This document shows positions 1 through 13,818 of a stretch of DNA of 61,771 nucleotides, piece by piece. This stretch comes from a virus (Duplodnaviria; Caudoviricetes). The DNA is taken from the IMG/VR virus record IMGVR_UViG_3300025030_000018, positions 1-61,771 of that record. One strand, written 5' to 3'. A program made the position numbers and the translations under genes. Under the pieces are notes generated by a model that saw only the letters and a program-made list of their open reading frames with translations, had not been told where the DNA came from and ran no database searches. Every line of letters begins with the position of its first letter. The first letter of the stretch is position 1.

Positions 1-127
1 CTAAAAGCCGGTCTCTCCCGGCTTGTCACGCCTGTTTTACACCGGCGTCCGTGTGCCCCCCGGCAGGTTATCAGTTAGTCTCTCTCTTTTCCTTGCCAGT
101 GTTTTCAGATATTTTTCTCGCAAGTTC
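1..127. repeat. Terminal direct repeat (copy 1), probably assembly overlap of a circular contig
   Basis: 1-127 identical to 61645-61771; 127 is a common assembler k-mer size. Confidence 0.95.
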
Positions 128-380
128 AGCGTTTATCTTCTCAGTCTCAGTAACAGGGCCATCGTTGAGAACTTGCAGAAAATAGGTATCTCCAAAATTG
201 TGTTTAAAGAGAAATATCCTCCCCTTACCATCGACTGCTTGAATCTTGTCGTACTTGTCGCCAGTTGAGCACCCGCTTAAAAACAGCAGCAGAACTGTAG
301 CGCCGATCACTATTTTACCCATGATCATTCACTCCTTTAATTTTTCAGGCGTTTTGCCCGATTGTACTTTCTACTCGCTC
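67..380 (-). mobile_element. Putative single-gene cassette C with conserved ends
   Basis: Minus strand GAGCG-AGTA-GAAAG-TACAA-TCGGGC-AAAAC-GCCTGA (380-345) and TAACTGATAAC (77-67) flank one ORF; the same ends occur at two other loci. Confidence 0.6.
71..328 (-). CDS. Small lipoprotein (cargo of cassette C)
   Basis: Hydrophobic signal with lipobox LLLFLSG-C; AAGGAG RBS; stop codon lies inside the TAACTGA motif. Confidence 0.7.
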   Translation of the reverse strand: MIMGKIVIGATVLLLFLSGCSTGDKYDKIQAVDGKGRIFLFKHNFGDTYFLQVLNDGPVTETEKINAELARKISENTGKEKRETN

Positions 381-397
381 CTAGTCATCATGTAACT

Positions 398-426
398 ACC
401 GTAACACATCTCCTACGGGGGTGCAA
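398..426 (-). promoter_or_regulatory. Sigma70-type promoter
   Basis: TTGCAC-17 nt-TACGGT with TGn extension, just upstream of cassette C. Confidence 0.5.
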
Positions 427-454
427 CAACTTTTTGTATCGCGGGTTACTAATT

Positions 455-1351
455 TTAGTGTGCCACTCCGATGAAGTCTAAGACCATGCCCATGCCCAAG
501 TAATCAATGCAGTATTTGTGCAGCTTCGGATGTGTCTCTTTCAACTTTACGAATCTCGGCTCCCTCTCCTGCATACACCCAAACATGCAGAACACACAGC
601 CTGTGCGGTCGTAGCCCATGTCATATATTGACGAATATTTGATCCCGGCCTTCAGGCATCGCCATATATCAGCCTCGGTCCAGATTGATAGTGGGCGGGA
701 CATGAGTTTTTTCTTTTCAAAAACATTGCACCCGGACGCCGCGTAGCTCCGCAGCCTCGCCCTACTGTCCGAGGCCATAACTCCTACGAACGGGACATCC
801 TCAGAGTCTTTGAGATGCTTGGCAAGCGGCTGCTTTTTCATGCAGGTACAGCAGGCTTCGCTGATCTTGAAAGGGGCGTCTACCAAGTAATGGTACTTCT
901 GAGGAATGACTCCTACAGTCTGGATTTTCCCTGTGTTCGGATTAACCCCTCCCCACAGTCTGAGGTTTCTCTGTGCCTCTGACTTGGTGTTTCTGCACCT
1001 GGATATAGCCATAGCTACTTCCTTGCTTATCACAGGGTAGCCGTACTTTTTGATTACTTCTCCGAAGGTCATCTTTGGGCGGAGCCAAATCACGTTCTGG
1101 ATCGTGCGGACAAACGCCAGTACCTCTGGGAACTCAAGCCCTGTGTTGACGAACACCGCCGGGACTTCAGGGTAAAGCTGTCGAACCAAGTACAGTAGAA
1201 TGGTAGAGTCCTTGCCGCCGGAGAAAGAGACATAGACCTTCCCTCCCCAAGCCTCATGCCACTCCCTGATCCTCTCTCGCGCCCATTCGATCTTCCAAAG
1301 GAGGTCCATCTCTTGACGCTGCTTGATCTCACACAGAGATGCGGACATCAA
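455..1351 (-). CDS. Phosphoadenosine phosphosulfate (PAPS) reductase family protein
   Basis: PP-loop SFSGGKDS, CC..MKK.P and RTGCxxC Fe-S motifs. Confidence 0.9.
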   Translation of the reverse strand: MMSASLCEIKQRQEMDLLWKIEWARERIREWHEAWGGKVYVSFSGGKDSTILLYLVRQLYPEVPAVFVNTGLEFPEVLAFVRTIQNVIWLRPKMTFGEVIKKYGYPVISKEVAMAISRCRNTKSEAQRNLRLWGGVNPNTGKIQTVGVIPQKYHYLVDAPFKISEACCTCMKKQPLAKHLKDSEDVPFVGVMASDSRARLRSYAASGCNVFEKKKLMSRPLSIWTEADIWRCLKAGIKYSSIYDMGYDRTGCVFCMFGCMQEREPRFVKLKETHPKLHKYCIDYLGMGMVLDFIGVAH

Positions 1352-2919
1352 TTCTCCTTTGCCAAATCAAGGATAATATCCTGAAGTCTCTTCTTCTCAC
1401 GCAACGCCGCGTACATTCGTTTTTCTTCTGCAGTGGCGTAGATGCAGGCGATGTCGATCTTGGTGTTCTGCTTGCTGCCATCGGTGCGGGCGTTGGCCTG
1501 TTGCACCTTCGCCGCCTTGACATATGGGGCGTACCAGATAGAGAGGGTAGCTGTCGTCAGGTCAAGGCCATGGGCCATGGTGTCTGGGTTGGCGAGGATA
1601 ATCCAAGGGTCGGGGAGAGTCCTGAACTCCCGGAATATTTTATTGCGCTGCGCTGGAGATGTGGCCCCTTCGACGATCGCCACTGACCACTTCTTCCTAA
1701 GCTCGGCAGCCAAGGTGTTGAGCGCCCCCGTGAACGGGACGAACACCAGCACCTTCTCGTTGTTCTCGGAGATCAACTCCTCCAGGATCTTGAGCCTCGG
1801 CCCGAAGTCGAACTTGACCATATTGCTGGAGGCGTCGTAAGCAACCCCACAGGCAATTTGTACCAATTTACTTAATAATACCGCAGCGTTAACCGCTGTG
1901 ATGGTCTGCCCGTTCAGGTCGGTCGAGGCCTGCCTGATCAACTGCTTGTAGGCTTTATCCTGCTCGGCTGAGAGTTCCGCCCGCCGGTCGATGAAACTCG
2001 GTTCCATAGTGCTGCATACCTTCCGCTCGAACCTGATGGCCGGCTTTAATACTCGCGCTACGACCTGCTCATGGCCTGGCTTAGGCAGCCACTTGAACTG
2101 CCGGAGTTGCCACATGGTCTCCTGCTTGAACGCGGTGAAGTGGCCCTTAAAGTTCTCAGGAGTAATCAATTTGCACTGGCCGAAGGCATCAGTAGGCTCG
2201 TTCGGCGTCGGGGTCCCTGTCAGCCCCCATGCGGACCTCGCAATCCCTTGGCGGTTCAGCACTTCGTTCAGTGGGGTCCACAGTACTCCGCCCTTCTTGT
2301 CTTTGGTCCTGCGGTTTTTCGCACTGCGCAGCTCGGCCAGTTCGTCCACGATGACGAGGTTGATGTCCGGCCTGGACTTCAAGGCTTCCTCGATTATGCC
2401 TACCCCATGGTGATTACAAATATAAAAATCGCAAGGCTTGGCGAGAAGGTCGAGGCGCTTTTGCCTCGGGCCGTGCAGGACAGCGAAGGTCCGGAGTGGG
2501 AAACTCTCGAAAATATTCTGCTCCCACACATCCCAGAGAGTGGAAAGCGGAGCGACGATCAGCGTCCTTTTTATCTGGCCGGCGAGGCGGAGGTAGTCCG
2601 CACCCCAGAGGGCACTCAAGGTCTTCCCAGTCCGCATCTCGGATAGGCAGTAGCAGCGGGAGTGAAGAGTAAAAAACTCCGCAGTTTCCACTTGGTACCA
2701 TCTCGGCTTATACCGCCCAGGCCACTCGTACTGCCGTCTGATCGGCGACTCAACCTTGATCCCAAGATTGTTGAGCACCCGAGCACTTTCCAGCGTGTGC
2801 GGCACAGCGACGAACCTCTCGCCTTTGATCGTCGCTTCCTTGATGTCTGGGAAGACGGCGCGGAGTTGGCTCGGGTTATTGTGCTTCAGCACAACGTGAT
2901 TGTCTAGGATGCGGATCAT
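1348..2919 (-). CDS. SNF2-family (SF2) helicase
   Basis: Walker A EMRTGKT, DE motif II (IVDELA), motif III LTGTP, HGLDL and Q...R C-terminal motifs. Confidence 0.9.
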   Translation of the reverse strand: MIRILDNHVVLKHNNPSQLRAVFPDIKEATIKGERFVAVPHTLESARVLNNLGIKVESPIRRQYEWPGRYKPRWYQVETAEFFTLHSRCYCLSEMRTGKTLSALWGADYLRLAGQIKRTLIVAPLSTLWDVWEQNIFESFPLRTFAVLHGPRQKRLDLLAKPCDFYICNHHGVGIIEEALKSRPDINLVIVDELAELRSAKNRRTKDKKGGVLWTPLNEVLNRQGIARSAWGLTGTPTPNEPTDAFGQCKLITPENFKGHFTAFKQETMWQLRQFKWLPKPGHEQVVARVLKPAIRFERKVCSTMEPSFIDRRAELSAEQDKAYKQLIRQASTDLNGQTITAVNAAVLLSKLVQIACGVAYDASSNMVKFDFGPRLKILEELISENNEKVLVFVPFTGALNTLAAELRKKWSVAIVEGATSPAQRNKIFREFRTLPDPWIILANPDTMAHGLDLTTATLSIWYAPYVKAAKVQQANARTDGSKQNTKIDIACIYATAEEKRMYAALREKKRLQDIILDLAKEN

Positions 2920-3062
2920 TGGCAGCAGCGAACGTACTGGTCGTACATATCTTCGGCGAATCGCTCCGAATCGAAGTCAAGTTCACGGTCTGCTCCGGAC
3001 TCCGCGGCGTAAATATCCAACAACTCTTCATTTTCTTCGTACCACTCTTCGAAATCCTTCAT
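2916..3062 (-). CDS. 48-aa highly acidic protein (not in ORF track)
   Basis: MKDFEEWYEENEELLDIYAAESGADRELDFDSERFAEDMYDQYVRCCQ; GGAG-rich RBS; ATGA overlap with helicase start. Confidence 0.7.
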   Translation of the reverse strand: MKDFEEWYEENEELLDIYAAESGADRELDFDSERFAEDMYDQYVRCCQ

Positions 3063-3129
3063 ACCTCTCCCTCCCTCCTCAAAAAGTCATACTTCTGAGT
3101 ATGTTTTCGGCCAGGTCTTTAAACGACAG

Positions 3130-3509
3130 GTTTTCAGTTAGTATCAGGCATGGTGCCTGACATTATTTTTTAAAAATATAGTCGTAATCATCACCGTATA
3201 CCTCGCGCCGTACTTCCTCTAAAACTTCCCCGAACGGCGGCTTCTTTTTAAGAAGTGCCCAATTATGCCCGTATCGCTCGATCATCCTCTTTGAGACTTC
3301 GTCGTCAATACTTTCTTCGCGGCCAGCGGCAGACTCGAACATTTCGTATTCCTGTTCAATGCGAGAGTCCATTTGGAAAAACCTTTCTTTTAGTTCTTCC
3401 ACCGACCTACTGGAGCTAAGTATGTAGCCGATGTGTTCTGTGTCTTTTTTATTCAAGTCATGCTCCTTTTTCGAGATTGCAAAATCTCGATACTACTTTC
3501 TTATCGTTC
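3130..3509 (-). mobile_element. Putative single-gene cassette A with conserved ends
   Basis: GAACG-ATAA-GAAAG-TAGTA-TCGAGATT-TTGC-AATCTCGA (3509-3471); TCAGGCA-CCA-TGCCTGA-TAC-TAACTGAAAAC (3160-3130). Confidence 0.6.
3163..3456 (-). CDS. Hypothetical charged helical protein (cargo of cassette A)
   Basis: 97-aa ORF, TTG start after AAGGAG, visibly AT-richer than neighbours. Confidence 0.65.
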   Translation of the reverse strand: MNKKDTEHIGYILSSSRSVEELKERFFQMDSRIEQEYEMFESAAGREESIDDEVSKRMIERYGHNWALLKKKPPFGEVLEEVRREVYGDDYDYIFKK

Positions 3510-3842
3510 AGCCTTAACCTTCTCCAGCCACTCTTGAAACGCTTTCAGCGTTGCCTCGCCGTCAACGACAAACACCGCGCCTCCCGAGGAGGCGATTGCA
3601 GAAATCTGCAAAGCCTGCAGTCCACTCGGCTTCTTGCCGAGGGCCTTTGCCTCGATAGCAAAGAACATGCCCAGATAGTGCCCGACTACGTCCGGGAGGC
3701 CTCCGATCGACATCGCCCCCTGCACCGCAGGATACCAGTACCCGTCAGCCTTCTCAAACGTGCCGGCCTTGGCCGCGGACAAAATATCATACTCGGCGAG
3801 GAGGGCGTAGATCAGCCGCTTCGTGCCCCCTTCAGGGGTCAT
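3501..3842 (-). CDS. VRR-NUC domain nuclease (Holliday-junction resolvase-like)
   Basis: TPEG...GLPDVVG...FFAIEAK...LQ...GG.VFVVD pattern. Confidence 0.85.
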   Translation of the reverse strand: MTPEGGTKRLIYALLAEYDILSAAKAGTFEKADGYWYPAVQGAMSIGGLPDVVGHYLGMFFAIEAKALGKKPSGLQALQISAIASSGGAVFVVDGEATLKAFQEWLEKVKAER

Positions 3843-4057
3843 ACGCCCTCCACCACAGCCATGCCCTTATCTCCTATCTGCAGACACAGTCTGGACATGA
3901 TCTGACCTCCATAGTAGACTAGCCACTTGTCGGTATCAGGCAGGTGATCTTCTGGGGACACCACGACTACGCCACGCTCACCGTTCGGATGGACGATGTA
4001 GTCCCCAACGTAAACGTCGTTGCCGGCGTAGTCAGTCCAAGGGGCTTTTCTTTTCAC
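3839..4057 (-). CDS. Hypothetical protein
   Basis: 72-aa ORF overlapping both neighbours by 4 nt. Confidence 0.6.
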   Translation of the reverse strand: MKRKAPWTDYAGNDVYVGDYIVHPNGERGVVVVSPEDHLPDTDKWLVYYGGQIMSRLCLQIGDKGMAVVEGV

Positions 4058-4566
4058 TTCACCACCTCCATCAAGTAAACCGCCTGAGACTTGGCATCGT
4101 CGAGTGCGTTGTGTGCCGTGCCTTGGTACGACCGGTCGATCTTAGGATACATGGCTCTCACCGTGCGGAAACACCTGTCGTTCCTGAACGACCAAGGAGC
4201 AGTCAGGCCCAGGCGGTCGTAAGCCGAGCGGAGGATAACGTTATCAAAGGCTACGCCGTTGCCCCAGACTGGCACATCCTCGCCGGCGGACTGCACCCAC
4301 GCCTTGAACAAGCGAAGTACGAAGTCAATGTCCTTCCCCGGCCTCTTAAACGCCGCCCGGGCCTCATCGCTCTGCTGCATCCACCAGAGGATAGTCGAGG
4401 CGTCAACGGTGCCGCCGGCCTTCATTGCCGAGTCGAGGTCAACGACCTCATAAAACTCCCGGCCGATGGTCTTGGTGTCGAGGGAGAACTCGACCCCTCC
4501 TATGGCTATTATGGCTGCGTCTGGGCGGTTGCCCATTGTTTCTAAATCTGTCATGATGTCGGTCAC
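4054..4566 (-). CDS. DEDDh 3'-5' exo(ribo)nuclease (RNase AS-like)
   Basis: DLET, T..WW, WGNG..FD, HNALDDA motifs. Confidence 0.85.
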   Translation of the reverse strand: MTDIMTDLETMGNRPDAAIIAIGGVEFSLDTKTIGREFYEVVDLDSAMKAGGTVDASTILWWMQQSDEARAAFKRPGKDIDFVLRLFKAWVQSAGEDVPVWGNGVAFDNVILRSAYDRLGLTAPWSFRNDRCFRTVRAMYPKIDRSYQGTAHNALDDAKSQAVYLMEVVK

Positions 4567-4579
4567 TTACTTCCTCCTC

Positions 4580-4723
4580 TCAATAGTCGTAAAAATCGTA
4601 GTCAGGCTCCCCCGCCCAGTCGTCATCGGCGAAGTAGTCTTCGTCCTCATCGATGACCTTGTACGCCGGGTCCTCGGCGTTATCGTATTTTTCTTGAGCG
4701 CGGTCGAAGCGTTGTTGGTTCAT
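4580..4723 (-). CDS. 47-aa highly acidic/aromatic protein (not in ORF track)
   Basis: MNQQRFDRAQEKYDNAEDPAYKVIDEDEDYFADDDWAGEPDYDFYDY; AAGGAGG RBS. Confidence 0.65.
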   Translation of the reverse strand: MNQQRFDRAQEKYDNAEDPAYKVIDEDEDYFADDDWAGEPDYDFYDY

Positions 4724-4737
4724 TTGGGGGGCCTCCT

Positions 4738-4899
4738 TTATTCATCGTTTTGGCAGTGGCAGCGGTCGCTGATAGCCCCGCAGTAGACGCAAATGCCCTC
4801 AGTCGTTTTCTCAATGAACTCCATCCGGTCCTCATCGTTCTGGAAAGACTTCAGAAGTTCGTTGATCTGTTCGGCTTGTTTTATAATCAGTAGGTTCAT
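4738..4899 (-). CDS. Small Cys-rich hypothetical protein
   Basis: Start re-called at MNLL (ATGA overlap); C-terminal CxxC..CxC. Confidence 0.6.
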   Translation of the reverse strand: MNLLIIKQAEQINELLKSFQNDEDRMEFIEKTTEGICVYCGAISDRCHCQNDE

Positions 4900-5588
4900 C
4901 TCCTTCCCCCTTTGCCACAATGGGCACATGAAGCAACTTCGCACCAGCCTCGGCACAAGCCGCTGGGTTTCGGGTCAAATCGCTCAGTCCGCCATGCGGA
5001 CTTCATCCTCTCCACCCATCCGAGGATCTCCTCCCACATCGCTGGGATATCTTCTTTCGAGAAGACGCCGTCTTTCGGAGTCACCGCGTCGTGCTTCAGC
5101 CAGATGTACTTGGTAACGAAGGTCTCGATCTCTGGGTGCTTGAGCGCCAAGAAGCAGGCGTTGATCTTGAGCTGGAGGGAGTCCTCACGGATGCCACCAG
5201 TTTTCCAATCTAAGCATGTGATCTTGTTATCTTTTTTCAGACTAACATCAATTTTACACCTGCCGTAAGCCGTCTTGTCGAACCACTTTACGAACTTCAT
5301 GTTCTCGTCGATCGCCAGTTCCTGCTCGGCGAAGAGGGTGCCTCCGGATGACTCAAGAATCCTGCAATACTTCTCGCCGCGGGTGTAGCCTGCCGGCAGC
5401 GGGGTCTTCTTGAGAAGCCGGTCCTCGAGATGCTTGTGCTCGATTGTCCCCTGCTTCATGGCCTCGATCTCCCGGTACGGGATCGTGACATAGAACCGCT
5501 TGGCTGCATAACTTAGTGGGCACGTAATGTAGTCAGCGATAGCTGATGGAGACCAGGAGAAGTTCTTGCCTACGGCGTTTTTTAGCAT
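4896..5588 (-). CDS. PD-(D/E)XK (RecB/Cas4-like) exonuclease
   Basis: WSPS...CP, G...H, E..D..DWKTG, QL, C-terminal CxxC....C. Confidence 0.85.
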   Translation of the reverse strand: MLKNAVGKNFSWSPSAIADYITCPLSYAAKRFYVTIPYREIEAMKQGTIEHKHLEDRLLKKTPLPAGYTRGEKYCRILESSGGTLFAEQELAIDENMKFVKWFDKTAYGRCKIDVSLKKDNKITCLDWKTGGIREDSLQLKINACFLALKHPEIETFVTKYIWLKHDAVTPKDGVFSKEDIPAMWEEILGWVERMKSAWRTERFDPKPSGLCRGWCEVASCAHCGKGGRR

Positions 5589-5604
5589 TTGGGGTCCTTG
5601 GTTT

Positions 5605-6376
5605 GTTATCAGTTACAATCGGGCATGATGCCTGACATATTTTTAACCGTGGTAATCGACGGTGACACAGATCCAGTCTTCTTTGGGCGTCACCTTTTCG
5701 GCATACTCTTTTCTGTAGTTTTTAAGTTTGCCCGCCCACTCTGACACCGCCGACAGAACCTTTTTGTCCCATGTGGTATCAACATGATTGACGCCATTCC
5801 ACATTGAGTCAGACAGCATAAACTTTGCCTCCATCTTCTTGTCATCGTAATCAAGCCCAGCTATGATAACCCTTGAACATGTCAGATTTTCCGGGATTTC
5901 ATCAACTCGGCAGATGTCACAAGAAAGGAGGTCGTTGCTATCGTATTGATTATTTGAATGGGCGAACAGCGGACATGCCACAATCTCACCATTTTCAGTG
6001 GGGAAGAACTCGTTCCAGATGTTGTCAACTAGGGGGATTTGACTTTTCGGCTCAAGCGACTGCTTGCCAGCCTGAATCCCTGATACCGTCACCTTGTTTT
6101 CTTGCAGCTTCACATAAAACTTCTCTAACGATTCCGCGTTATATGTGCATTTTTCCTTCGTTCCGGCCCACCTCCCACCAATAACAAACCAATCCCAAAA
6201 CGAGTGACCTGAGTGGTCTTCGCTTTCCTCGTTATTCTCACTAAACGGCAGCATGATCTCTTCAATTGACTTGCTGATATCTTTGGTTTTGGGCATGATA
6301 ATTTCGCAATGATAGTGCATGTTTTTCGCTCCTTTTTGTTCGGGCGTCATTGCCCGATACTACTTTCCTATCGCTC
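5605..6376 (-). mobile_element. Putative single-gene cassette B with conserved ends
   Basis: GAGCG-ATAG-GAAAG-TAGTA-TCGGGC-AATGAC-GCCCGA (6376-6340); TCAGGCA-TCA-TGCCCGA-TTG-TAACTGATAAC (5635-5605). Confidence 0.6.
5643..6320 (-). CDS. Hypothetical phage protein with WDWxxIGGRW...VDYH motifs (cargo of cassette B)
   Basis: Start re-called at MHYHCE after AAGGAG; AT-richer than core genes. Confidence 0.7.
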   Translation of the reverse strand: MHYHCEIIMPKTKDISKSIEEIMLPFSENNEESEDHSGHSFWDWFVIGGRWAGTKEKCTYNAESLEKFYVKLQENKVTVSGIQAGKQSLEPKSQIPLVDNIWNEFFPTENGEIVACPLFAHSNNQYDSNDLLSCDICRVDEIPENLTCSRVIIAGLDYDDKKMEAKFMLSDSMWNGVNHVDTTWDKKVLSAVSEWAGKLKNYRKEYAEKVTPKEDWICVTVDYHG

Positions 6377-6533
6377 ACCCAATCCTCACAGTATTCCCAT
6401 GGTCGTTATACATCTCAACCTCGGAGACGGGTTCAAACTCAGGCTCGTCCTCGCCTTGCCAGTCCACCAAGCACTCCACCTCCATGTCCGGAGGGAATTC
6501 TTTCAGTTTGTCTATCAGGTCTTGGACTTTCAT
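6375..6533 (-). CDS. 52-aa acidic protein (not in ORF track)
   Basis: MKVQDLIDKLKEFPPDMEV...; GGAGGAG RBS; its stop overlaps the cassette B end. Confidence 0.7.
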   Translation of the reverse strand: MKVQDLIDKLKEFPPDMEVECLVDWQGEDEPEFEPVSEVEMYNDHGNTVRIG

Positions 6534-6793
6534 TTAGGCTCCTCCAACAACTCTCCTCCAAAGATTTTCCTTTGCCCAAGGCGCACTACTTCGCCGAAGT
6601 CTTTGCCTGCGGCGGCAGCCATCAAGGACATCTTGGCCGCATTCACTTCGACCTGGATGGACTTGTTAATAGCCTCCATGCCTTCAATGACGCACGTAGC
6701 CCGGTCCGCCGGCATAGCGCCCTCTTTAACCGCCATCATCACTTCCAATATCAGTTTTCTGGAATCTCCAACAGTTTCAACTATGTCTTTCAT
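6530..6793 (-). CDS. Hypothetical helical protein paired with upstream repeat protein
   Basis: 87-aa ORF, AAGGAG RBS, overlaps upstream gene. Confidence 0.7.
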   Translation of the reverse strand: MKDIVETVGDSRKLILEVMMAVKEGAMPADRATCVIEGMEAINKSIQVEVNAAKMSLMAAAAGKDFGEVVRLGQRKIFGGELLEEPK

Positions 6794-7412
6794 TGACTGT
6801 CTCCTTTAATTGTTTTAATGCTCGATGTAATAGCAGTTGTGCTTTTTTGGCTTCGTACAGTTCGGTTGGCATATTTGCGGCGGATATGCCCATCGCCTTT
6901 GCAACATATCTAGGAAGTAATTCATGTATTGCGTGTGCCTGCCACATTCTGTAGTGGTCTCGTAATCGCTCCCTATTATTTATGTTCCAGGCCTTTTTCG
7001 CCTCTTTTGTACCCTCGTAGTACCTTCTCCTATACTTCTGCAAATACTCCGTATTATTTTCGCGCCATTTTTTCCTGTACGCAATATTACGGTCTTTATT
7101 CGTAGCCTGATATTCTTTATACCGATCCTTATTCTCCGCGTAGTATCTTCGGCCGTACTCCCTCGCCTGGTCCTTATTCGCCTCCCGATACTGTTTTTTG
7201 CGGGCACTGATCTGGTCCTTGTTTGCTTCTCTCCACGCCTTACTACGATCAAGTAGCTGCTCCTTGTTCTTTAAGTAATAATCTTTTCGGTGAGCAAGTA
7301 TCTGCTCCTTGTTCTTTAAATAGGCGGCTCTTGCCTGAGCACTTAGCTTGTCCTTGTGCTTCTCCCGGTACTCTCGCCTGTACGCTGCTTTTTCTTCTGG
7401 AGTTTTTGCCAT
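6777..7412 (-). CDS. Basic protein with about 15-aa (Y/W)RExNK(D/E) repeats
   Basis: Repeats such as YLKNKEQ, WREANKDQ, YREANKDQ; no HNH motif visible. Confidence 0.75.
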   Translation of the reverse strand: MAKTPEEKAAYRREYREKHKDKLSAQARAAYLKNKEQILAHRKDYYLKNKEQLLDRSKAWREANKDQISARKKQYREANKDQAREYGRRYYAENKDRYKEYQATNKDRNIAYRKKWRENNTEYLQKYRRRYYEGTKEAKKAWNINNRERLRDHYRMWQAHAIHELLPRYVAKAMGISAANMPTELYEAKKAQLLLHRALKQLKETVNERHS

Positions 7413-7492
7413 TAGTAATATCCTCGAAAGAAATTCACCCTCGCTTTCAGTCCAGGAGTTAACCGTCCGCGAGGGTGTTTGCGCACGGTCTG

Positions 7493-7521
7493 ATAGTAAC
7501 CCGTTTGACTTAGTACTGCAA
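7493..7521 (-). promoter_or_regulatory. Sigma70-type promoter for the 7412-6530 gene pair
   Basis: TTGCAG-17 nt-TACTAT in an intergenic gap. Confidence 0.6.
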
Positions 7522-7552
7522 CTGTTTTGTTTCTTGGGTTACAGATTTATTA

Positions 7553-7789
7553 TTAGCTGTCAACGTTCAGCCGGGCAGACAGATCCCCTTCCTCAACTTC
7601 ACAAAGGGTGTACCACTCTCTTTCAATCCCTCGTCGGCCTCCCCCCGCGAGTATGTGGGTTTTCGTCCTGTCGTCTACCTCCAAACTTTTTAGGTCCTCC
7701 AACGCGGGGCGCTTGGCGAACGCCATAACAAAATACTCTCCATACTGGTCATAGTCGTTCACTTCGTAAGTAATTACGAATAATTTCAT
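7553..7789 (-). CDS. Hypothetical protein
   Basis: 78-aa ORF with AAGGAGG RBS. Confidence 0.65.
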   Translation of the reverse strand: MKLFVITYEVNDYDQYGEYFVMAFAKRPALEDLKSLEVDDRTKTHILAGGGRRGIEREWYTLCEVEEGDLSARLNVDS

Positions 7790-7803
7790 TTACTTCCTCC
7801 TTA

Positions 7804-8037
7804 TCATTTATCAATTTCGGGTCCGAAATCTCGCAACGCCGCTCGCGCCCCGGCGTCAAACGAAGAATCTATCCCAGATACTTTGGCTTCCAGGTCTTCG
7901 GCCGAGGTTCTCGTGTGAAGCAGTTCTCCTACCGCCCAAGCGTAGCCCATCGACCACTCTTCCTCCTGTTTTCGCTTCCTACGTCTCGAGAAATAGCCTT
8001 GTATGTTCTTCCGCATACTGTTCTCCTTTAGCTTCAA
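7804..8037 (-). CDS. Hypothetical protein
   Basis: 77-aa ORF after polymerase; true start may be the internal MRKN. Confidence 0.55.
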   Translation of the reverse strand: MKLKENSMRKNIQGYFSRRRKRKQEEEWSMGYAWAVGELLHTRTSAEDLEAKVSGIDSSFDAGARAALRDFGPEIDK

Positions 8038-10236
8038 TCATTTCTCACATTCTCCATAAGAGACAGCGTACCCTCCCGACGACTTCAGCGGGAGGTCGGG
8101 GCACCAGGAAGGTGCGGTTGCCATTTCTACCTTCATCATCTGTAAGCACTCGTCGGCGTACCTCTCAGGCACGACCGTGATTAGTTCGTCGTGGGTGCTA
8201 GACACGATCTCCGCGACCTCGCCGGGGCGCAGGGAGTACTCCCGCAGCCGGGGGATAACCTTCAACGCTTGGTCGGAGATGACCAGTCGGGACAAAGCCT
8301 GGGTGCCATTTTCCGCGCATTTACCAGCATATAGCTTAGTCCACTCTTTCTTTCTTACGTTCGCCAGATACTTATAGTCGCCACTGTCAGACTTCCGGAG
8401 CTTGCTATAGCGGATCTTCATGCCGTTTGGCAGGACGTATCCTTCCTTGTCCGTATGCACCAGCGGCCTGCCGCCCACCCCGCGCTCTTGGCCGAGGAGG
8501 ATGTCAGTAAGGGACGCCTGGCAGTCCTTCCATAATGCCGTCACTCTGTTGTTCGAGGATCGGAACGAGTCCACCAGAAACTTCGTCACGGCGCAGTGCG
8601 TCAAGTGATCGTCCAAGGCTACATTCAGCGGGCAGCAGGCTTCGGCCTCTTCGTAGGCGTAGGTGAACCCCTTCTTATAGGACTTCTGATACCTGAACGC
8701 CTCGACATCGACGCCCAGTTGCTTGACGTAGGTCTGGTCGAAGATGATACCCTCCATCCCCATGAACCCGACCCGGACGCTCTCCTGCAACTTCCAGGCC
8801 CCCATCTGATAGCCGCATCCGAGAATGATAATCTTTCCTACCTGCCCCGCCGTCTTGTGCTCGGGGTTTGTCTTCCGACTGATCGGGTAGCCGTAAACTT
8901 TCGTCGCCATGAAGTCGTAAGGGTCGCCGCCGGCACGGAACATTTCAAGCATATCCTCTTGACCGGCCCAGTAGCAGAGCATCCGCGCCTCGATCTGGCT
9001 CAGGTCGCGCACAACCACAACATGCCCCGGAGGGGCGCAGAGCGACATCCGCAAGGCCCCGGCAGTAGGGTCTCGGTCGTCTACCCGGTTCAGGTTCTGG
9101 GCGTTCTGCTTATCCCCGCCGCTCCATCTATTTGTGTGGGCACCGTAGTAGTTCAGGTACACCGGGAACTTCCCTCGCTTGCCGATCTTATAGAACCGTT
9201 TGGTCCGGGTCTCCTTGATCGTGGACTTCACCCCGAGCCTGGCCTCGACCACTGCCTGGACCTGCGGGTCCGGGTGATCCTGAAGCATTTTGAACTCCTC
9301 GTCCGACTTGCCAAAGGCATAGGCCCAAGGGTAAACTTTCCCCTCGGCTTTCAACTCGGCAGCGCGAGCCTTGTAGTCACCCTGCGTCATGCCCGCCGCC
9401 TTGGCGTCTTTCCAAGGGATCATCTTGAACGACGGCAGTATCCCGCTCGGCGGATCGCCCACGTTGTCCGGGTCCACCCTGCCGTCTTTTATTTTGGCCG
9501 GGCTTAATTTCTTATGCGGGTCTACGCCCATAGTGAGCAGCAGGGCGGCAAACTTGTCGCCGGAGGAGAGCACGGTCTTGTCGGACACGCACTGCCTGAT
9601 CAGCGCCCGTTTGCGCCTCCGCTCCTGCTTATACGCCTCGACAAGCGGGGCCTGGTCCACGACGAACACCGGCTCAGTAAACCGCCGGATAGTCCAGTCG
9701 ATCAACCGCAACTCCGACACCGGGAAGTGGCCCTTGAGCGCATCGAAGATGTCAGCGGTCAGCTCTACGTCGTTGCAGCAGTACCCACCCATGATCTCCT
9801 GCTCTGCATCTGTCAGGTGCCATTTGCCTGCGAAGTGGACAAGCTCGGTGCCTTTCTCCCCTACACCGAGGAGTTTTGCGACGTTGGCGAGGCTGGAGGA
9901 CTCGTGCGGGAAGATCGCTCTTGCCATAGACAGAGTGCATCCCCAGAACGCTGGGCGGATGCCGCAGCGCCAAGTAAGGATTGCCCCGTCAAAATGACTG
10001 TGATGTGCGATGACAAAGGAGTCGTGCCACGGATGGGTTCGTAGGAAATGCACGAGGTCGTCCGGTTTGTAGATGTAAAACGCTTTGTCGCGGTCGATCT
10101 TCACTCCCAGGCCGTGGGCTTTGAATAGCTTGTGCCTCACATATTCTTCGCTGGTCATCCGGGAGAGGGTGATATTTTCCTGTGTTATCGGGTGCTTGCC
10201 GTATGCCGACTCCCAGTCAAGTACTGTTCGGATCAT
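8038..10236 (-). CDS. Family A DNA polymerase with 3'-5' exonuclease domain
   Basis: Exo DWE, H..FD, Y...D; motif A DLSQIEAR; motif B K...LGCGY; motif C THDE. Confidence 0.95.
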   Translation of the reverse strand: MIRTVLDWESAYGKHPITQENITLSRMTSEEYVRHKLFKAHGLGVKIDRDKAFYIYKPDDLVHFLRTHPWHDSFVIAHHSHFDGAILTWRCGIRPAFWGCTLSMARAIFPHESSSLANVAKLLGVGEKGTELVHFAGKWHLTDAEQEIMGGYCCNDVELTADIFDALKGHFPVSELRLIDWTIRRFTEPVFVVDQAPLVEAYKQERRRKRALIRQCVSDKTVLSSGDKFAALLLTMGVDPHKKLSPAKIKDGRVDPDNVGDPPSGILPSFKMIPWKDAKAAGMTQGDYKARAAELKAEGKVYPWAYAFGKSDEEFKMLQDHPDPQVQAVVEARLGVKSTIKETRTKRFYKIGKRGKFPVYLNYYGAHTNRWSGGDKQNAQNLNRVDDRDPTAGALRMSLCAPPGHVVVVRDLSQIEARMLCYWAGQEDMLEMFRAGGDPYDFMATKVYGYPISRKTNPEHKTAGQVGKIIILGCGYQMGAWKLQESVRVGFMGMEGIIFDQTYVKQLGVDVEAFRYQKSYKKGFTYAYEEAEACCPLNVALDDHLTHCAVTKFLVDSFRSSNNRVTALWKDCQASLTDILLGQERGVGGRPLVHTDKEGYVLPNGMKIRYSKLRKSDSGDYKYLANVRKKEWTKLYAGKCAENGTQALSRLVISDQALKVIPRLREYSLRPGEVAEIVSSTHDELITVVPERYADECLQMMKVEMATAPSWCPDLPLKSSGGYAVSYGECEK

Positions 10237-10391
10237 TTTCTCTCCAGCAGCGCCCTGCGCTCTTTGGCCTTATATGCTTTCGAGGCTTCCTTCGAGTTGC
10301 TGCCCCAAGGCGTGCAGCATGGGCAGTCAATATTTGTCCCTTTCAGTTTCCTGTTGGCGCAGGCTTTTCTCGGCTTACCATATGCTTTCAT
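10233..10391 (-). CDS. 52-aa basic protein (not in ORF track)
   Basis: MKAYGKPRKACANRKLKGTNIDCPCC...; ATGA overlaps at both ends. Confidence 0.55.
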   Translation of the reverse strand: MKAYGKPRKACANRKLKGTNIDCPCCTPWGSNSKEASKAYKAKERRALLERK

Positions 10392-10573
10392 CTCTTCTTC
10401 CCCTCGTAAAATTGCGGAGCTAGTGCGACCATCATGGCAGTGTACGCCATTGCGTTGTGCACCCTCTTGCTACGCTGTCTGGGCGTTTCATCCCTCGGCT
10501 CTGCCGGATACGGGACGTTGATGAGGAGGATTGTGAGCCAGCGGTTCTTCGGGACTGAGTATCGTTTGGTCAT
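10388..10573 (-). CDS. Hypothetical protein
   Basis: 61-aa ORF with ATGA overlaps. Confidence 0.55.
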   Translation of the reverse strand: MTKRYSVPKNRWLTILLINVPYPAEPRDETPRQRSKRVHNAMAYTAMMVALAPQFYEGKKR

Positions 10574-10749
10574 TTGGCTTTCTCCTGCCTCTCAATATGC
10601 TCCCGTAACCGGGACAACTTCTCCTCGTATTCCCTCGGCACGGCCTCGCCGCGCTCCCACCGTGCGACCTGGGAGGTGCTGGCACCGAGGATCTGGGCGA
10701 TCTGGGCCTGGGTCTTGCCGAGTGATTTTCTTATTTGTTTGGGGGTCAT
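10570..10749 (-). CDS. XRE/Cro-like HTH protein, 59 aa (not in ORF track)
   Basis: IRKSLGKTQAQIAQILGASTSQVARWERG. Confidence 0.8.
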   Translation of the reverse strand: MTPKQIRKSLGKTQAQIAQILGASTSQVARWERGEAVPREYEEKLSRLREHIERQEKAK

Positions 10750-10982
10750 CTTCTCCCCTTCGTCAAAAGGTTAACGTGTATTGCCTCTTTATTGAGGCGG
10801 CTCATCGGGTTACTTGGCGGCTCTCGGTCTACAGCGTTACGTAGGGAGCGCTCGACGAACCGTTTGAAATGGGTTTCACTCACCCCGACCGGCAGGTCCA
10901 CCTCGATGATGAATTTTTTCGCGTCTGTGGTCGTGGTAAGCACTTGGTCCTCCAGGGTGGAGGTGGTCAGTAGCTCTAGCAT
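10746..10982 (-). CDS. Hypothetical protein
   Basis: 78-aa ORF with AAGGAGG RBS. Confidence 0.6.
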   Translation of the reverse strand: MLELLTTSTLEDQVLTTTTDAKKFIIEVDLPVGVSETHFKRFVERSLRNAVDREPPSNPMSRLNKEAIHVNLLTKGRR

Positions 10983-10991
10983 GTACCCTCC

Positions 10992-11222
10992 TTAGTTAGG
11001 GAAAATTTTTAATGTGTCAAGTAAAAATGCTGTGCCTGCGATAATAAGTGCGATGTAAGCAGCAAGCCCTATTGCGACGAACCACCTCTTACGCGGCTTC
11101 GGCAGATACTCTTCGCCGTAGTCCTTCGGGCTTATAACTCGGAACGGCACCTGCTCCTGAAAGTCACGCCGAAAGCGCCTGCTTGCCTCTATGTACTCTC
11201 TATCGACTCTCGCTCTGCTCAT
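10992..11222 (-). CDS. Small membrane-anchored protein
   Basis: Start re-called at MSRARV; C-terminal hydrophobic helix. Confidence 0.55.
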   Translation of the reverse strand: MSRARVDREYIEASRRFRRDFQEQVPFRVISPKDYGEEYLPKPRKRWFVAIGLAAYIALIIAGTAFLLDTLKIFPN

Positions 11223-11640
11223 CTCCTCTCCTCCCACGCTCCGCATGGTCTGATTTTTTAAGGTTGTGTGTCCGTACTTTGTCTCCAAGCGCCTGCCAGG
11301 CGGCGTTACCCATCCCACCAAAGGAGAAGGCTTCGCCGGTTATTTTCCTGCCTTTCCTGGCCTTGGGTGCCAAGATCGCCGGGTAGTCCCACCCGTAGTT
11401 GTGTATCCGCTGACCGAGGCCGTGGGCCTTGATCCCAACGATGGCCGCGAGGTCTTTCAAACTGTAGGTCTTGCCGTCGTCGCAGTCGAGCATCGTGACC
11501 ATGTTCGGCCCTTTGCCTGTGACCTTGACGAGGTACGGCGGGCGGACTATGCGGTTCGGCTTAGGAAGGTCGGCCAAGACCTGTTTGATGAGATCTTGCA
11601 GGGCCTGGGGCTGGGTTGTTTCGGCTTGTCGAAGGTGCAT
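11200..11640 (-). CDS. Hypothetical protein with possible HTH-like DNA-binding motif
   Basis: DGKTYSLKDLAAIVGI...L..RI..YGW resembles a phage DNA-binding motif. Confidence 0.55.
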   Translation of the reverse strand: MHLRQAETTQPQALQDLIKQVLADLPKPNRIVRPPYLVKVTGKGPNMVTMLDCDDGKTYSLKDLAAIVGIKAHGLGQRIHNYGWDYPAILAPKARKGRKITGEAFSFGGMGNAAWQALGDKVRTHNLKKSDHAERGRRGDEQSESR

Positions 11641-12168: not shown

Positions 12169-12413
12169 AAGTCCGCTCCGTAAAGAATTGGTGAGTGGTG
12201 CCCCTCGAACATTACCGAGAGGGCGTAGTCGTCGTAGGGGGCTTGGTGACTGTCCGCTGAAGCGGCGTCTTTCTGCCCGAACTTGAACGCTTGGGCCTCA
12301 TCTTCAGCCTCGACGTGGGCCACGTAAACGTCCTGGCCGTGTGGAGAGTTCTCGCACAGGTAGTCCGGACGGAGTAAAACGACGGTGTATTTTTTCCTTA
12401 AGTTATTACTCAT
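12165..12413 (-). CDS. Hypothetical protein
   Basis: 82-aa ORF with ATGA overlaps. Confidence 0.6.
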   Translation of the reverse strand: MSNNLRKKYTVVLLRPDYLCENSPHGQDVYVAHVEAEDEAQAFKFGQKDAASADSHQAPYDDYALSVMFEGHHSPILYGADL

Positions 12414-13137: not shown

Positions 13138-13165
13138 TTGGTCTCTCCTTTCCTTAATTATCTTT

Positions 13166-13193
13166 AAAAACGCCCCAGGATGATCCCAGGGCG
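13166..13193 (-). terminator. Intrinsic terminator
   Basis: CGCCCTGGGA-TCA-TCCTGGGGCG imperfect stem followed by TTTTT on the minus strand. Confidence 0.6.
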
Positions 13194-13804: not shown

Positions 13805-13818
13805 GTTCTTTCTCCTTT

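What the first reader, a model, noticed from the sequence alone, without database searches (positions are those of the whole stretch)
67..6376. Three unrelated single-gene cassettes share precisely spaced, structured ends: candidate new gene-cassette system
Seen: three AT-richer genes with no mutual similarity (71-328 lipoprotein, 3163-3456, 5643-6320) sit between core replication genes. On the minus strand each is preceded by the same motif with identical spacing. C is GAGCG-AGTA-GAAAG-TACAA-[TCGGGC..GCCTGA] (380-345), A is GAACG-ATAA-GAAAG-TAGTA-[TCGAGATT..AATCTCGA] (3509-3471) and B is GAGCG-ATAG-GAAAG-TAGTA-[TCGGGC..GCCCGA] (6376-6340). An A-run and AAGGAG RBS follow in each case. Each gene is followed by TAACTGAWAAC (77-67, 3140-3130, 5615-5605), and in A and B this is 3 nt after a TCAGGCA-N3-TGCCYGA hairpin. 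The 5' hairpin of A has a different sequence but keeps its pairing, which points to a single-stranded RNA or DNA structure. Inference: a standardised format for capturing, moving or expressing cargo genes. I recognise no integrase, HUH transposase or RT here, so any mobilising factor would be in trans or an unannotated ORF. It does not match attC, pdif or REP consensus as I know them.
Basis: partly seen in the sequence, partly recalled or inferred. Interest (0 to 1): 0.92.

Follow-up and report, generated by a model that had tools for sequence, protein, structure and literature searches.

The report
Phage accessory genes with shared hairpin ends
Three foreign-looking accessory genes in a 61.6-kb groundwater phage are each wrapped in the same short signal-plus-hairpin ends, which most likely act as lineage-specific expression and recombination punctuation rather than as a new, widespread gene-capture system.

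Summary
A 22-nt motif plus hairpin, A-run and AAGGAG precedes three unrelated AT-rich genes. TAACTGAWAAC follows each, and these motifs occur nowhere else in this complete phage genome. New here: the 3' hairpin of cassettes A and B is an inverted copy of the 5' element, TA(GT/CA)AT running into TCRGGC..GCCYGA. The only close relative, G001, carries different cargo at all three sites: a 62-aa ORF, a four-gene island, and tRNA-His. It keeps a related 5' element at site B and half of one at site A, and has no 3' motif.

Against a general cassette system:
- Neither end was found in 2.9 million viral contigs, 185,579 species genomes, GenBank phages or 170 related loci, apart from chance hits inside ORFs.
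- Homologues of cargo B elsewhere lack both ends.
- No integrase, resolvase, Y1 transposase or HNH is encoded.
- About 20 other variable islands lack the motifs.

Best reading (0.45): PeSL-like or moron-like boundary modules that give expression signals and short homology for cargo swapping. A hairpin-ended mobile cassette is not excluded (about 0.12). Interest is moderate to low.

The parts
67..380 (-). Cassette C, whole unit from the 5' motif to the 3' motif (314 bp, 42.0% GC)
   Evidence: Replaced in G001 by an 83-bp stretch holding tRNA-His, with homology resuming exactly outside both motifs. A joint 66->378 is seen in contigs of X1 and X5.
359..380 (-). Cassette C 5' motif GAGCGAGTAGAAAGTACAATCG. 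It contains the -10-like hexamer TACAAT at 366-361.
   Evidence: This is the only one of the three that passes the sigma-70 scan (ATGACT-16-TACAAT, 388-361).
345..361 (-). Cassette C 5' hairpin TCGGGC-AAAAC-GCCTGA. It has one G.U pair and so folds on the - strand. AAGGAG follows at 337-332.
71..328 (-). Cargo C, an 85-aa ORF (the likelier start is the second ATG at 322). Reading the sequence suggests a signal peptide and an LSGC lipobox, so a putative lipoprotein.
   Evidence: No Pfam or PHROG family. No relative found in viral contigs. The lipobox is my reading of the sequence and was not tested with a tool.
67..77 (-). Cassette C 3' motif TAACTGATAAC. Its TAA is the cargo stop codon. No hairpin precedes it.
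   Evidence: Shares 22 nt at 86% with the 3' end of cassette A (61-82 with 3124-3145, D14).
3130..3509 (-). Cassette A, whole unit (380 bp, 42.6% GC), between VRR-NUC (3501-3842) and a 48-aa ORF plus the SNF2 helicase
   Evidence: At this site G001 has a 1.8-kb island with GNAT, NUDIX, a 167-aa ORF and a 55-aa ORF.
3488..3509 (-). Cassette A 5' motif GAACGATAAGAAAGTAGTATCG. GAACGATAA is the end of VRR-NUC plus its stop codon. The hexamer TAGTAT lies at 3495-3490.
   Evidence: G001 shares GATCGCTAAGAAACTAG and then diverges.
3471..3490 (-). Cassette A 5' hairpin TCGAGATT-TTGC-AATCTCGA (8 bp). Its stem sequence differs from those of B and C. AAGGAG follows at 3468-3463.
3163..3456 (-). Cargo A, a 97-aa acidic ORF with a TTG start; an orphan
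   Evidence: Weak match to phrog_2052, E = 0.0076. No relative in viral contigs. No usable Atlas hit.
3130..3160 (-). Cassette A 3' end: hairpin TCAGGCA-CCA-TGCCTGA (3160-3144), then TAC, then TAACTGAAAAC (3140-3130). Read on the + strand it is TAGTAT plus hairpin plus a T-run.
   Evidence: z = -3.3. Terminator-like on the + strand only. Inverted copy of the 5' element.
5605..6376 (-). Cassette B, whole unit (772 bp, 45.3% GC), between a 52-aa ORF (6375-6533) and the PD-(D/E)XK nuclease (4896-5588)
   Evidence: At this site G001 has a 62-aa ORF in a 222-bp replacement.
6355..6376 (-). Cassette B 5' motif GAGCGATAGGAAAGTAGTATCG. It starts inside the TGA stop codon of the 52-aa ORF. The hexamer TAGTAT lies at 6362-6357.
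   Evidence: 26 nt at 88% identity to the 5' motif of A (D2).
6340..6357 (-). Cassette B 5' hairpin TCGGGC-AATGAC-GCCCGA. The leader ACAAAAAGGAG follows, with AAGGAG at 6334-6329.
   Evidence: G001 site B keeps TAGTAT-AGGGC-TTTT-GCCCGA-CAACAAAAAG (the blastn block 6332-6543 is 78.5% identical).
5643..6320 (-). Cargo B, 225 aa, a member of a widespread phage family of unknown function
   Evidence: No Pfam or PHROG family. Homologues at 74% (L086) and 58% (L087) sit in AT-rich phage contigs without the end motifs. Atlas clusters of 147, 125 and 99 members are mostly viral. The best PDB hit has E = 0.38.
5605..5635 (-). Cassette B 3' end: hairpin TCAGGCA-TCA-TGCCCGA (5635-5619), then TTG, then TAACTGATAAC (5615-5605). 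On the + strand it reads TACAAT plus a fully paired hairpin plus a T-run.
   Evidence: 40 nt at 83% identity to the 3' end of A (D3). 28 nt at 82% complementary to the 5' element of C (I1).
381..455 (-). Conserved leader of site C, shared with G001, with promoter-like hexamers (TTGCAC-17-TACGGT by my reading; TAGACT-17-TAAAAT by the scan)
   Evidence: 378-456 is 91% identical to G001.
5..24 (-). Conserved terminator-like hairpin downstream of site C (AAGCCGG..CCGGCTT followed by T's). G001 has a compensatory C-G to T-A change in the stem.

Best explanation
These are three horizontally acquired accessory genes ('morons') sitting in three hot spots of the replication module of a complete 61.6-kb groundwater/sediment phage. 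Each is wrapped in the same lineage-specific boundary module.

The 5' module runs in this order:
- the stop codon of the preceding gene;
- GAAAG;
- a -10-like hexamer (TAGTAT or TACAAT) whose last T opens a GC-rich hairpin;
- an A-rich leader;
- AAGGAG;
- the start codon.

In A and B the 3' module is the same hexamer plus hairpin turned round, followed by ACTGAWAAC.

I read the modules as regulatory and insulating punctuation of the PeSL type known from T4-type phages. They would give the cargo its own expression and insulation signals. They would also supply 25-50 nt patches of homology at which general recombination (phage or host functions, with no dedicated recombinase) inserts, deletes or swaps cargo.

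Shown: the anatomy, the repetition, the inverted relation of the ends, the foreign composition of the cargo, and cargo turnover at the same sites in the nearest relative. Inferred: promoter, attenuator or stabiliser activity, and recombination at the modules.
For: 1. Placement is that of an expression signal. In 3 of 3 cassettes the module fills the space between an upstream stop codon and SD plus start, with fixed order and near-fixed spacing.
2. In all 5 copies (3 forward, 2 inverted) the hexamer keeps T, A, A and T at positions 1, 2, 5 and 6 and varies only at positions 3 and 4, GT or CA. That is the pattern expected of a -10 element (established knowledge, recalled).
3. The C copy passes the sigma-70 scan.
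4. The stem-loops fold as predicted.
5. The modules outlast their cargo. G001 site B keeps hexamer, hairpin and A-run (78.5% identical block) in front of an unrelated 62-aa ORF. Site A keeps the first half of the module.
6. All 3 of 3 sites carry different cargo in G001, and a G001-like variant co-occurs in the same samples (joints 66->378 and 456->1370).
7. G000 and G001 encode no tyrosine integrase, serine recombinase, Y1 transposase or HNH.
8. The ends are confined to this lineage. This fits home-grown punctuation better than a travelling element.
9. The 5' flanks of B and C look like a copy of a gene end (GAG CGA TAG compared with GAA CGA TAA at the VRR-NUC stop). The 3' ends of A and C share extra flanking bases (D14). 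Both point to imprecise copying by recombination.
10. PeSLs have the same layout (upstream stop codon, promoter, stem-loop sometimes just after the -10, SD, start). They sit before ORFans and bound indels between close relatives (PMC2839356, sections 13 and 16).
Against: - Only 1 of 3 5' modules has an acceptable -35 in the scan, and none has a TG-extended -10.
- If the hexamer is a real -10, transcription would start inside the hairpin, so the hairpin could not also be a 5' RNA stabiliser.
- No hairpin has a U-tract on the coding strand. The 3' copies look like terminators only for the antisense (+) strand, which has no known transcripts here.
- There are only 3 (+2) copies, against about 50 PeSLs per T4-type genome.
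- About 20 other variable islands between the window and G001 have ordinary gene-boundary junctions with no such module, so the module is not needed for cargo turnover.
- PeSLs flank genes as direct repeats, whereas here the ends are inverted.
- No RNA data exist.
- Only one close relative could be found, so turnover rests on a single comparison.
Confidence: 0.45

Rival explanations
1. Hitch-hiked donor punctuation. All three cassettes were captured, ends included, from one unsampled AT-rich donor, for example another phage of the same host. In that donor this hairpin module would be the standard intergenic signal. In the present phage the ends would have no role in mobility and perhaps none in expression.
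For: - The ends are as AT-rich as the cargo; whole cassettes are 42-45% GC against 54.1% for the genome.
- The cassette SD is AAGGAG behind an A-run, whereas most backbone genes use GGAGG-type sites (listing).
- The motifs occur nowhere else in the genome.
- At site C both motifs lie inside the replaced segment.
Against: - No donor carrying either end exists in viral contigs, genome contigs or GenBank phages.
- The two known homologues of cargo B, both in AT-rich phage contigs, lack the ends.
- G001 keeps 5'-type elements at sites A and B in front of other cargo, so the element is resident at the site and not tied to the cargo.
- The 5' motif of A overlaps the backbone VRR-NUC coding end.
Confidence: 0.25
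2. A non-autonomous mobile cassette with hairpin-containing terminal inverted repeats. The inverted hexamer-plus-hairpin ends would be recognised as DNA (cruciform or single-stranded hairpin) by a trans-acting enzyme. Candidates are a host transposase or HUH enzyme, or a phage structure-specific nuclease such as the neighbouring VRR-NUC or PD-(D/E)XK proteins. That enzyme would cut out and insert the gene between the ends.
For: - The ends are true inverted repeats of 22-28 nt at 82-100%.
- The flank pentamers match 5 of 5 in two pairings, and the G.U/A.C asymmetry flips strand along with orientation.
- The cargoes are unrelated, foreign in composition, and each a single gene.
- At site C the indel edges coincide with the motif edges.
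- The stem of A differs in sequence but keeps its pairing.
Against: - No transposase or recombinase was found in G000 or G001.
- There is no target-site duplication, and the conserved outer flanks are not inverted copies of each other.
- No empty-site-like or circle-junction-like string was found in the window or in 187 loci.
- Neither end was found in any other genome searched.
- C lacks the 3' hairpin, and the two hairpins of A differ from each other.
- G001 has 5' elements without 3' partners.
- Loop length varies from 3 to 6 nt, which argues against a spacer-dependent recombinase site.
Confidence: 0.12
3. RNA-level processing and stability elements only. The cassettes would be co-transcribed with the replication operon. 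The hairpins with their flanking AU-rich single-stranded stretches (GAAAGUAGUA and UAACUGAWAAC) would mark endonuclease cuts, leaving a stable monocistronic mRNA capped by a stem-loop at each end. The elements would play no part in recombination.
For: - All genes in 1-18249 lie on one strand with short gaps, so read-through transcription is likely.
- The hairpins lie just outside the ORF at both ends in A and B.
- The 3' hairpin of B sits where the L086 homologue has its own terminator-like hairpin.
Against: - The 3' hairpin of B has an A.C mismatch in the sense RNA, and that segment does not fold better than shuffles (z = +0.51).
- The inverted-repeat relation of flank plus stem is a DNA-level symmetry that RNA function does not require.
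- There is no Rfam match.
- No RNA runs are available.
Confidence: 0.1

Closest known systems
PeSLs (promoter-early stem-loops), the mobile regulatory cassettes of T4-type phages (Arbiol et al. 2010, PMC2839356, sections 13 and 16 read; Comeau et al. 2014, PMC4122927, abstract and outline only)
   Same: - Short repeated intergenic modules that run from the upstream stop codon through a -10 region and a stem-loop to SD and start.
- They sit directly before ORFans in plastic regions, including within replication modules.
- Indels and replacements between close relatives are bounded by them.
- No dedicated recombinase is involved.
   Different: - 3 (+2 inverted) copies here against about 50 per genome.
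- No convincing -35 in 2 of 3 copies.
- No U-tract or poly-G/poly-C terminator stem.
- The ends of a cassette are inverted copies, not direct repeats of successive modules.
- There is an extra conserved 3' word, ACTGAWAAC.
- The host phage is a 61.6-kb PolA/DUF927-primase phage, not a T4-like myovirus.
- No promoter, terminator or mini-circle data exist here.
Morons of lambdoid and other tailed phages
   Same: Single extra genes between backbone genes that are adjacent or differently filled in relatives. Their base composition differs from the backbone, and they have their own flanking expression signals.
   Different: Classical morons have an individual promoter and a factor-independent terminator, not a shared pair of repeated ends. 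Here no U-tract terminator follows the genes on the coding strand.
Prokaryotic and viral MITEs and REP/REPIN-type palindromic elements (MITEs in viruses: PMC11602168, search listing and start of abstract only; REP/RAYT features recalled)
   Same: - Small units (314-772 bp) bounded by inverted repeats.
- Each repeat is a short palindrome preceded by a conserved few-base head (GTAG or GTAC just before the stem, as recalled for REPs).
- No transposase inside.
   Different: - Each unit carries a different intact gene instead of a shared non-coding interior.
- No target-site duplication.
- Only three units.
- No related copies in any searched genome.
- No RAYT or Y1 enzyme was found.
Integron gene cassettes (attC) and IS200/IS605-derived PATEs (features recalled)
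   Same: Promoterless or single-gene units of unrelated cargo with structured, hairpin-forming ends that could act as single strands.
   Different: - No attC-length imperfect repeat with RYYYAAC/GTTRRRY cores.
- No IntI, no array and no attI.
- For IS200/IS605, both hairpins should lie on the same strand and a Y1 TnpA should exist. Here the ends are inverted and no Y1 enzyme is encoded.

Membership tests
PeSL-type regulatory cassette | Intergenic, immediately upstream of an ORFan or accessory gene in a plastic region | tested here: met
   3 of 3 modules lie directly before AT-rich cargo that has no Pfam family. All 3 sites differ in the nearest relative.
PeSL-type regulatory cassette | Spans from the stop codon of the upstream gene to the SD and start codon of the downstream gene | tested here: met
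   A: the VRR-NUC TAA lies inside the motif. B: the motif begins in the TGA of the 52-aa ORF. C: the motif follows a TAG and lies 75 nt after the PAPS-reductase stop. AAGGAG and a start codon follow in 3 of 3.
PeSL-type regulatory cassette | Strong sigma-70-like promoter with both -35 and -10 boxes | tested here: inconclusive
   A -10-like hexamer TAGTAT or TACAAT is present in 5 of 5 copies. Only 1 of 3 5' modules (C) passes the two-hexamer scan. Activity was not tested.
PeSL-type regulatory cassette | Stem-loop that acts as a terminator or attenuator | tested here: inconclusive
   Stem-loops of 6-8 bp occur in 3 of 3 5' modules and 2 of 3 3' ends. None has a U-tract on the coding strand. The 3' copies score as terminators on the + strand only.
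PeSL-type regulatory cassette | Tens of copies per genome, clustered in hyperplastic regions | tested here: not met
   3 forward and 2 inverted copies in 61.6 kb.
PeSL-type regulatory cassette | Recombination between modules yields indels and mini-circles | not testable with these tools
   Only Logan contigs were available. The joints seen are the G001-like variant, and no shown joint skips A or B.
Moron | Extra gene between backbone genes, with base composition unlike the backbone | tested here: met
   Cargo GC is 42-45% against 54.1% for the genome and 54-59% for flanking core genes. The sites are filled differently in G001.
Moron | Own promoter upstream and factor-independent terminator downstream | tested here: inconclusive
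   See the promoter row above. There is no hairpin plus U-tract on the coding strand after any cargo.
IS200/IS605-type element or PATE | Y1 HUH transposase (TnpA) available | tested here: not met
   PF01797 matched 0 of 2 genomes (G000, G001), while the control genomes responded. The host genome is unknown and was not tested.
IS200/IS605-type element or PATE | Subterminal hairpins at both ends on the same strand | tested here: not met
   Flanks and wobble asymmetry show that the 3' hairpins are inverted copies of the 5' ones.
MITE | Terminal inverted repeats | tested here: met
   22-28 nt at 82-100% for A and B. C lacks the 3' hairpin.
MITE | Target-site duplication, and many copies with a shared non-coding interior | tested here: not met
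   There is no direct repeat outside the ends. The interiors are three unrelated ORFs. No further copies were found in any collection searched.
Integron gene cassette | attC recombination site at the 3' end, and an IntI tyrosine recombinase with attI | tested here: not met
   PF00589 matched 0 of 2 genomes. The 31-nt 3' end has no RYYYAAC...GTTRRRY arrangement (my reading against the recalled consensus).

The most novel reading that the evidence does not exclude
The units could be a new kind of phage gene cassette: single genes bounded by inverted copies of a hexamer-plus-hairpin element. They would be moved between intergenic 'slots' of phage replication modules by a structure-specific enzyme acting in trans on extruded or single-stranded hairpins. 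Candidate enzymes are the adjacent VRR-NUC or PD-(D/E)XK nucleases, or a host HUH/RAYT-like protein. That would make them a phage counterpart of integron cassettes or REPINs that carries cargo.
Probability: 0.12. Interest if true: 0.8.

Novelty: new variant of a known kind. Interest (0 to 1): 0.35.

Why it matters
If the best reading holds, PeSL-style modular shuffling is not peculiar to T4-like myoviruses. Short regulatory modules that double as recombination patches would also operate in a mid-sized, uncultured groundwater phage, in a new form with inverted ends. That gives a concrete handle on how accessory genes are slotted between core replication genes without breaking operons. The module itself is a compact candidate 'plug' (hexamer, hairpin, A-leader, SD) that could be tested as a portable expression signal.

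If the bolder reading holds, it would be a new cargo-carrying, hairpin-ended mobile unit in phages.

On present evidence the phenomenon is confined to one lineage: two genomes, three full units. Its general importance is therefore modest.

Tried and rejected
Chance: rejected.

Assembly artefact: rejected. Contigs from two studies span the junctions.

Widespread element: looked for and not found.
- The 5' pattern in viral contigs gave 5 hits, 5 of 5 in open frames of 100 aa or more.
- The 3' pattern in viral contigs gave 1 hit, in a short ORF.
- The 5' pattern with hairpin in genome contigs gave 3 hits, 3 of 3 in long ORFs.
- blastn of both ends against GenBank phages gave only hits with E of 4 or more, inside CDS.
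- Regex and hairpin-descriptor scans of all held loci (170 loci, 1.35 Mb; 1.39 Mb with the window) found only the window's own copies and G001 site B.

More close relatives: sought with the exonuclease in viral contigs (303 relatives, best 80 kept) and in metagenome contigs (295 relatives, best 80 kept), and with the helicase in viral contigs (11 relatives). Only G001 is close. The rest are at most 64-69% identical and have tightly packed genes with no such module.

Cargo relatives: B has 2. A and C have none in viral contigs.

Other checks:
- Rfam: nothing relevant.
- Empty-site and circle-junction strings: none convincing.
- Host REP-like origin: not properly testable.
- A covariance model of the 5' end was not built, because MAFFT did not align the differently sized hairpins in register and a model could only have searched sequence already held.
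- No RNA holder was listed, so expression is untested.
- Read laying used assembled contigs, which drop rare variants, and 29 further joints were not shown. The absence of excision joints for A and B is therefore no evidence.
- Supplementary files of the PeSL papers (promoter and terminator assays, fig. S1) could not be seen.

Full report
WHAT THE WINDOW IS. The window is a complete virus record of 61,771 bp whose first 127 bases recur at the end. This is either a circular assembly or a terminal repeat. Genes at 71-18249 and 53165-61673 run on the - strand and those at 18847-53110 on the + strand.

The finding lies in the replication module:
- PAPS-reductase-like gene, 455-1351
- SNF2 helicase, 1348-2919
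- VRR-NUC, 3501-3842
- Rv2179c-like 3'-5' exonuclease, 4054-4566
- PD-(D/E)XK nuclease, 4896-5588
- family A DNA polymerase, 8038-10236
- DUF927 primase-helicase, 56427-59300

Public runs that hold the sequence are groundwater and sediment metagenomes from two studies.

THE OBSERVATION. It is confirmed. The 22-nt 5' motif occurs three times and nowhere else, even with 3 mismatches allowed: 3 found against 0.02 expected, and 0 of 100 shuffles reached 3. Each copy is followed by a hairpin, an A-run, AAGGAG and a start codon.

TAACTGAWAAC is exact after each of the three genes. The fourth exact copy is only the terminal-repeat image of the first.

The three cargo ORFs (85, 97 and 225 aa) have no Pfam family (0 of 3) and no mutual similarity. 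The cassettes have 42.0, 42.6 and 45.3% GC in a 54.1% genome. Independent contigs (X5, second study) span cassettes A and B with 0 and 1 differences, so the structures are not assembly artefacts.

1. The N3 of the 5' motif is a stop codon: TAA, TAG or (G)TAG. In A the motif is the end of VRR-NUC itself. In B it starts in the stop codon of the 52-aa ORF.
2. The 3' hairpin is not an independent element. Read on the + strand, the 3' ends of A and B are TAGTAT-TCAGGCA..TGCCTGA and TACAAT-TCGGGCA..TGCCTGA. That is the same hexamer plus hairpin as at the 5' ends of B and C (alignment A2). The pair 339-366 with 5614-5641 is 28 nt and 82% complementary, the longest of 94 inverted pairs in 1-7000.
3. 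The one wobble pair in each case agrees with the flip. The 5' hairpin of C pairs on the - strand. The 3' hairpin of B pairs fully on the + strand and has an A.C mismatch in the sense RNA.
4. In all five copies the hexamer keeps T, A, A and T at positions 1, 2, 5 and 6 and varies only in the middle.
5. The 3' ends of A and C share 22 nt at 86%, reaching a few bases beyond the motif (D14). The 5' flanks of A and B share 26 nt at 88% (D2).

RELATIVES. Searches were run with the exonuclease (303 relatives in viral contigs and 295 in metagenome contigs, best 80 kept each time) and with the helicase (11 relatives). They found one close relative, G001, a 36-kb fragment with PolA 98%, helicase 96% and PD-(D/E)XK 83% amino-acid identity. 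All others are at most 64-69% identical. They keep the order PD-(D/E)XK, exonuclease, VRR-NUC, helicase, with tightly packed genes and no such module.

G001 is collinear with the window and highly mosaic, with blastn blocks of 71-95% identity separated by about 20 variable islands. At all three cassette sites G001 has something else:
- Site B: a 62-aa ORF. It is preceded by a recognisable copy of the 5' element (TAG-AAACTAGTAT-AGGGC-TTTT-GCCCGA-CAACAAAAAG) and has no 3' motif.
- Site A: a 1.8-kb island with GNAT, NUDIX and two further ORFs. It is preceded by GATCGCTAAGAAACTAG and nothing more.
- Site C: a tRNA-His(GTG) gene in place of the whole cassette. Homology stops and resumes exactly at the outer edges of the two motifs.

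Site C is itself a small conserved slot. It has a shared 75-nt leader with promoter-like hexamers and a shared downstream terminator hairpin that carries a compensatory change in G001. A G001-like form co-occurs with the window's form in the same samples (joints 66->378 and 456->1370).

The other islands, including the 913-bp PAPS-reductase indel, break at ordinary stop or SD-start junctions without the motifs.

IS IT A GENERAL CASSETTE FORMAT? I found no sign of one.
- The 5' pattern in viral contigs gave 5 hits, all 5 inside open frames of 100 aa or more.
- The 3' pattern gave 1 hit, inside an ORF.
- The 5' pattern with its hairpin gave 3 hits across one genome for each of 185,579 species, all 3 inside long ORFs.
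- blastn of either end against GenBank phages gave only hits with E of 4 or more, inside coding regions.
- Regex and hairpin-descriptor scans of all held loci found only G001 site B.
- Homologues of cargo B (74% and 58% identity) sit in AT-rich phage contigs with their own promoter and terminator-like flanks and without either motif. The A-rich leader ACAAAAAGG(G)AG does travel with the gene in L087.
- G000 and G001 encode no tyrosine integrase, serine recombinase, Y1 transposase or HNH: 0 of 2 genomes for each, with controls positive.
- No empty-site-like or circle-junction-like string exists in the window or the held loci.
- There is no Rfam match.

MECHANISM. The anatomy is that of expression punctuation. 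The order is: upstream stop codon, a conserved word, a -10-like hexamer whose invariant positions are the ones that matter for a -10 box (recalled knowledge), a stem-loop, an A-rich leader, a strong SD, and the start codon. This is the layout described for PeSLs in T4-type phages. There, the stem-loop can lie just downstream of the -10, the modules precede ORFans, they bound indels between close relatives, and they are proposed to recombine with one another (PMC2839356, sections 13 and 16).

Several points fit recombination at resident modules better than precise transposition:
- the 5' element persists at site B, and half of it at site A, while the cargo changes;
- a gene-end fossil (GAG CGA TAG) lies inside the 5' flank of B;
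- extra shared flank bases occur at the 3' ends of A and C;
- no recombinase is encoded.

I therefore favour (0.45) lineage-specific, PeSL-like boundary modules around morons.

The weak points are real:
- Only C has a scan-grade -35.
- No hairpin has a U-tract on the coding strand.
- The 3' copies look like terminators only for the antisense strand.
- There are five copies, not fifty.
- The ends are inverted, not direct.
- Most islands turn over without any module.

RIVALS.
- Punctuation carried in from one unsampled donor (0.25). The AT-rich ends and the AAGGAG SD support it. The resident 5' elements in G001 and the lack of any donor argue against it.
- A hairpin-ended, TIR-like non-autonomous cassette moved in trans (0.12). 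The true inverted repeats and the exact edges at site C support it. Against it: no target duplication, no partner enzyme, C has no 3' hairpin, the two hairpins of A do not match each other, the loops vary in length, and no copies exist elsewhere.
- RNA processing and stability elements only (0.10). The A.C mismatch in the sense RNA of B and the DNA-level symmetry of the ends weaken it.

COMPARISON AND NOVELTY. The units work most like PeSLs or morons, but they do not meet every defining feature of PeSLs. Copy number is not met, and promoter and terminator activity are inconclusive. The inverted arrangement and the extra 3' word are new. They fail the tested features of integron cassettes, IS200/IS605-type elements and MITEs. 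I rate this a new variant of a known kind, confined so far to two genomes, with interest 0.35.

LIMITS.
- Paper supplements could not be seen.
- Only assembled contigs of public runs could be laid.
- The host is unknown.
- The features of morons, REP/RAYT, IS200/IS605, attC and the -10 box are recalled, not taken from a call.

Noticed in passing
window 14900-15950: About 1 kb with little coding potential. It is rich in repeats: five copies of a 23-nt unit (CGTGTCCGAGATAGGGCGGTTTT and variants), many TTTTGGGCGT iteron-like repeats, CGCCCTAAGTCG in both orientations, and an A16 run in a very AT-rich core. It lies next to a perfect TTGACA-17-TATAAA promoter and an Xre-type HTH gene (13819-14472). 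It looks like an origin and/or the main regulatory switch.
   Followed up: partly
window 1-127 and 61645-61771: An exact 127-bp terminal repeat. It duplicates the 3' end of cassette C, so the fourth TAACTGATAAC is not an independent copy. It may be a k-mer overlap from a circular assembly rather than a true DTR.
   Followed up: partly
window 381-455 and 5-24; L001 9811-10030: Site C is a conserved mini transcription slot: a shared leader with promoter-like hexamers, and a shared terminator hairpin with a compensatory stem change. It holds tRNA-His(GTG) in the relative and the lipoprotein cassette in the window.
   Followed up: partly
window 456-1370: The PAPS-reductase-like gene is a clean 913-bp indel relative to G001, which has 14 other letters there. 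The same joint is seen in contigs of X1, X3 and X5. In more distant relatives (L003, L007) the gene sits between VRR-NUC and the helicase instead. So this gene also moves, without the cassette motifs.
   Followed up: partly
window 53078-53094 and 53527-53543: An exact 17-nt direct repeat, TAAGTAGGAATCCCAAA (2 found, 0 expected). It brackets the 93-aa ORF 53165-53446 and its leader at the junction of the convergent early and late arms. G001 has only one of the two copies.
   Followed up: partly
window 12595-12897: About 33 tandem copies of a 9-bp unit (GCAGTCGGA and variants) inside ORF 12410-12961, which would give a repetitive tripeptide tract.
   Followed up: no
window 45841-45948: A perfect 54-bp tandem duplication inside ORF 44918-46393 in the structural arm.
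   Followed up: no
window 59301-59332 (+ strand 59310); G001 23511: AAAGTAGTA followed by a small hairpin also occurs once on the + strand, in the 32-nt gap before the DUF927 primase gene, and is conserved in G001. A single extra 9-mer match is within chance, so I did not count it as a module.
   Followed up: partly
L001 7478-7485: CTGATAAC, the core of the 3' word, occurs once inside G001's site-A island, in the gap between the NUDIX gene and the next ORF. About 0.36 such 8-mers are expected by chance in that locus, so this is at most a weak echo.
   Followed up: no
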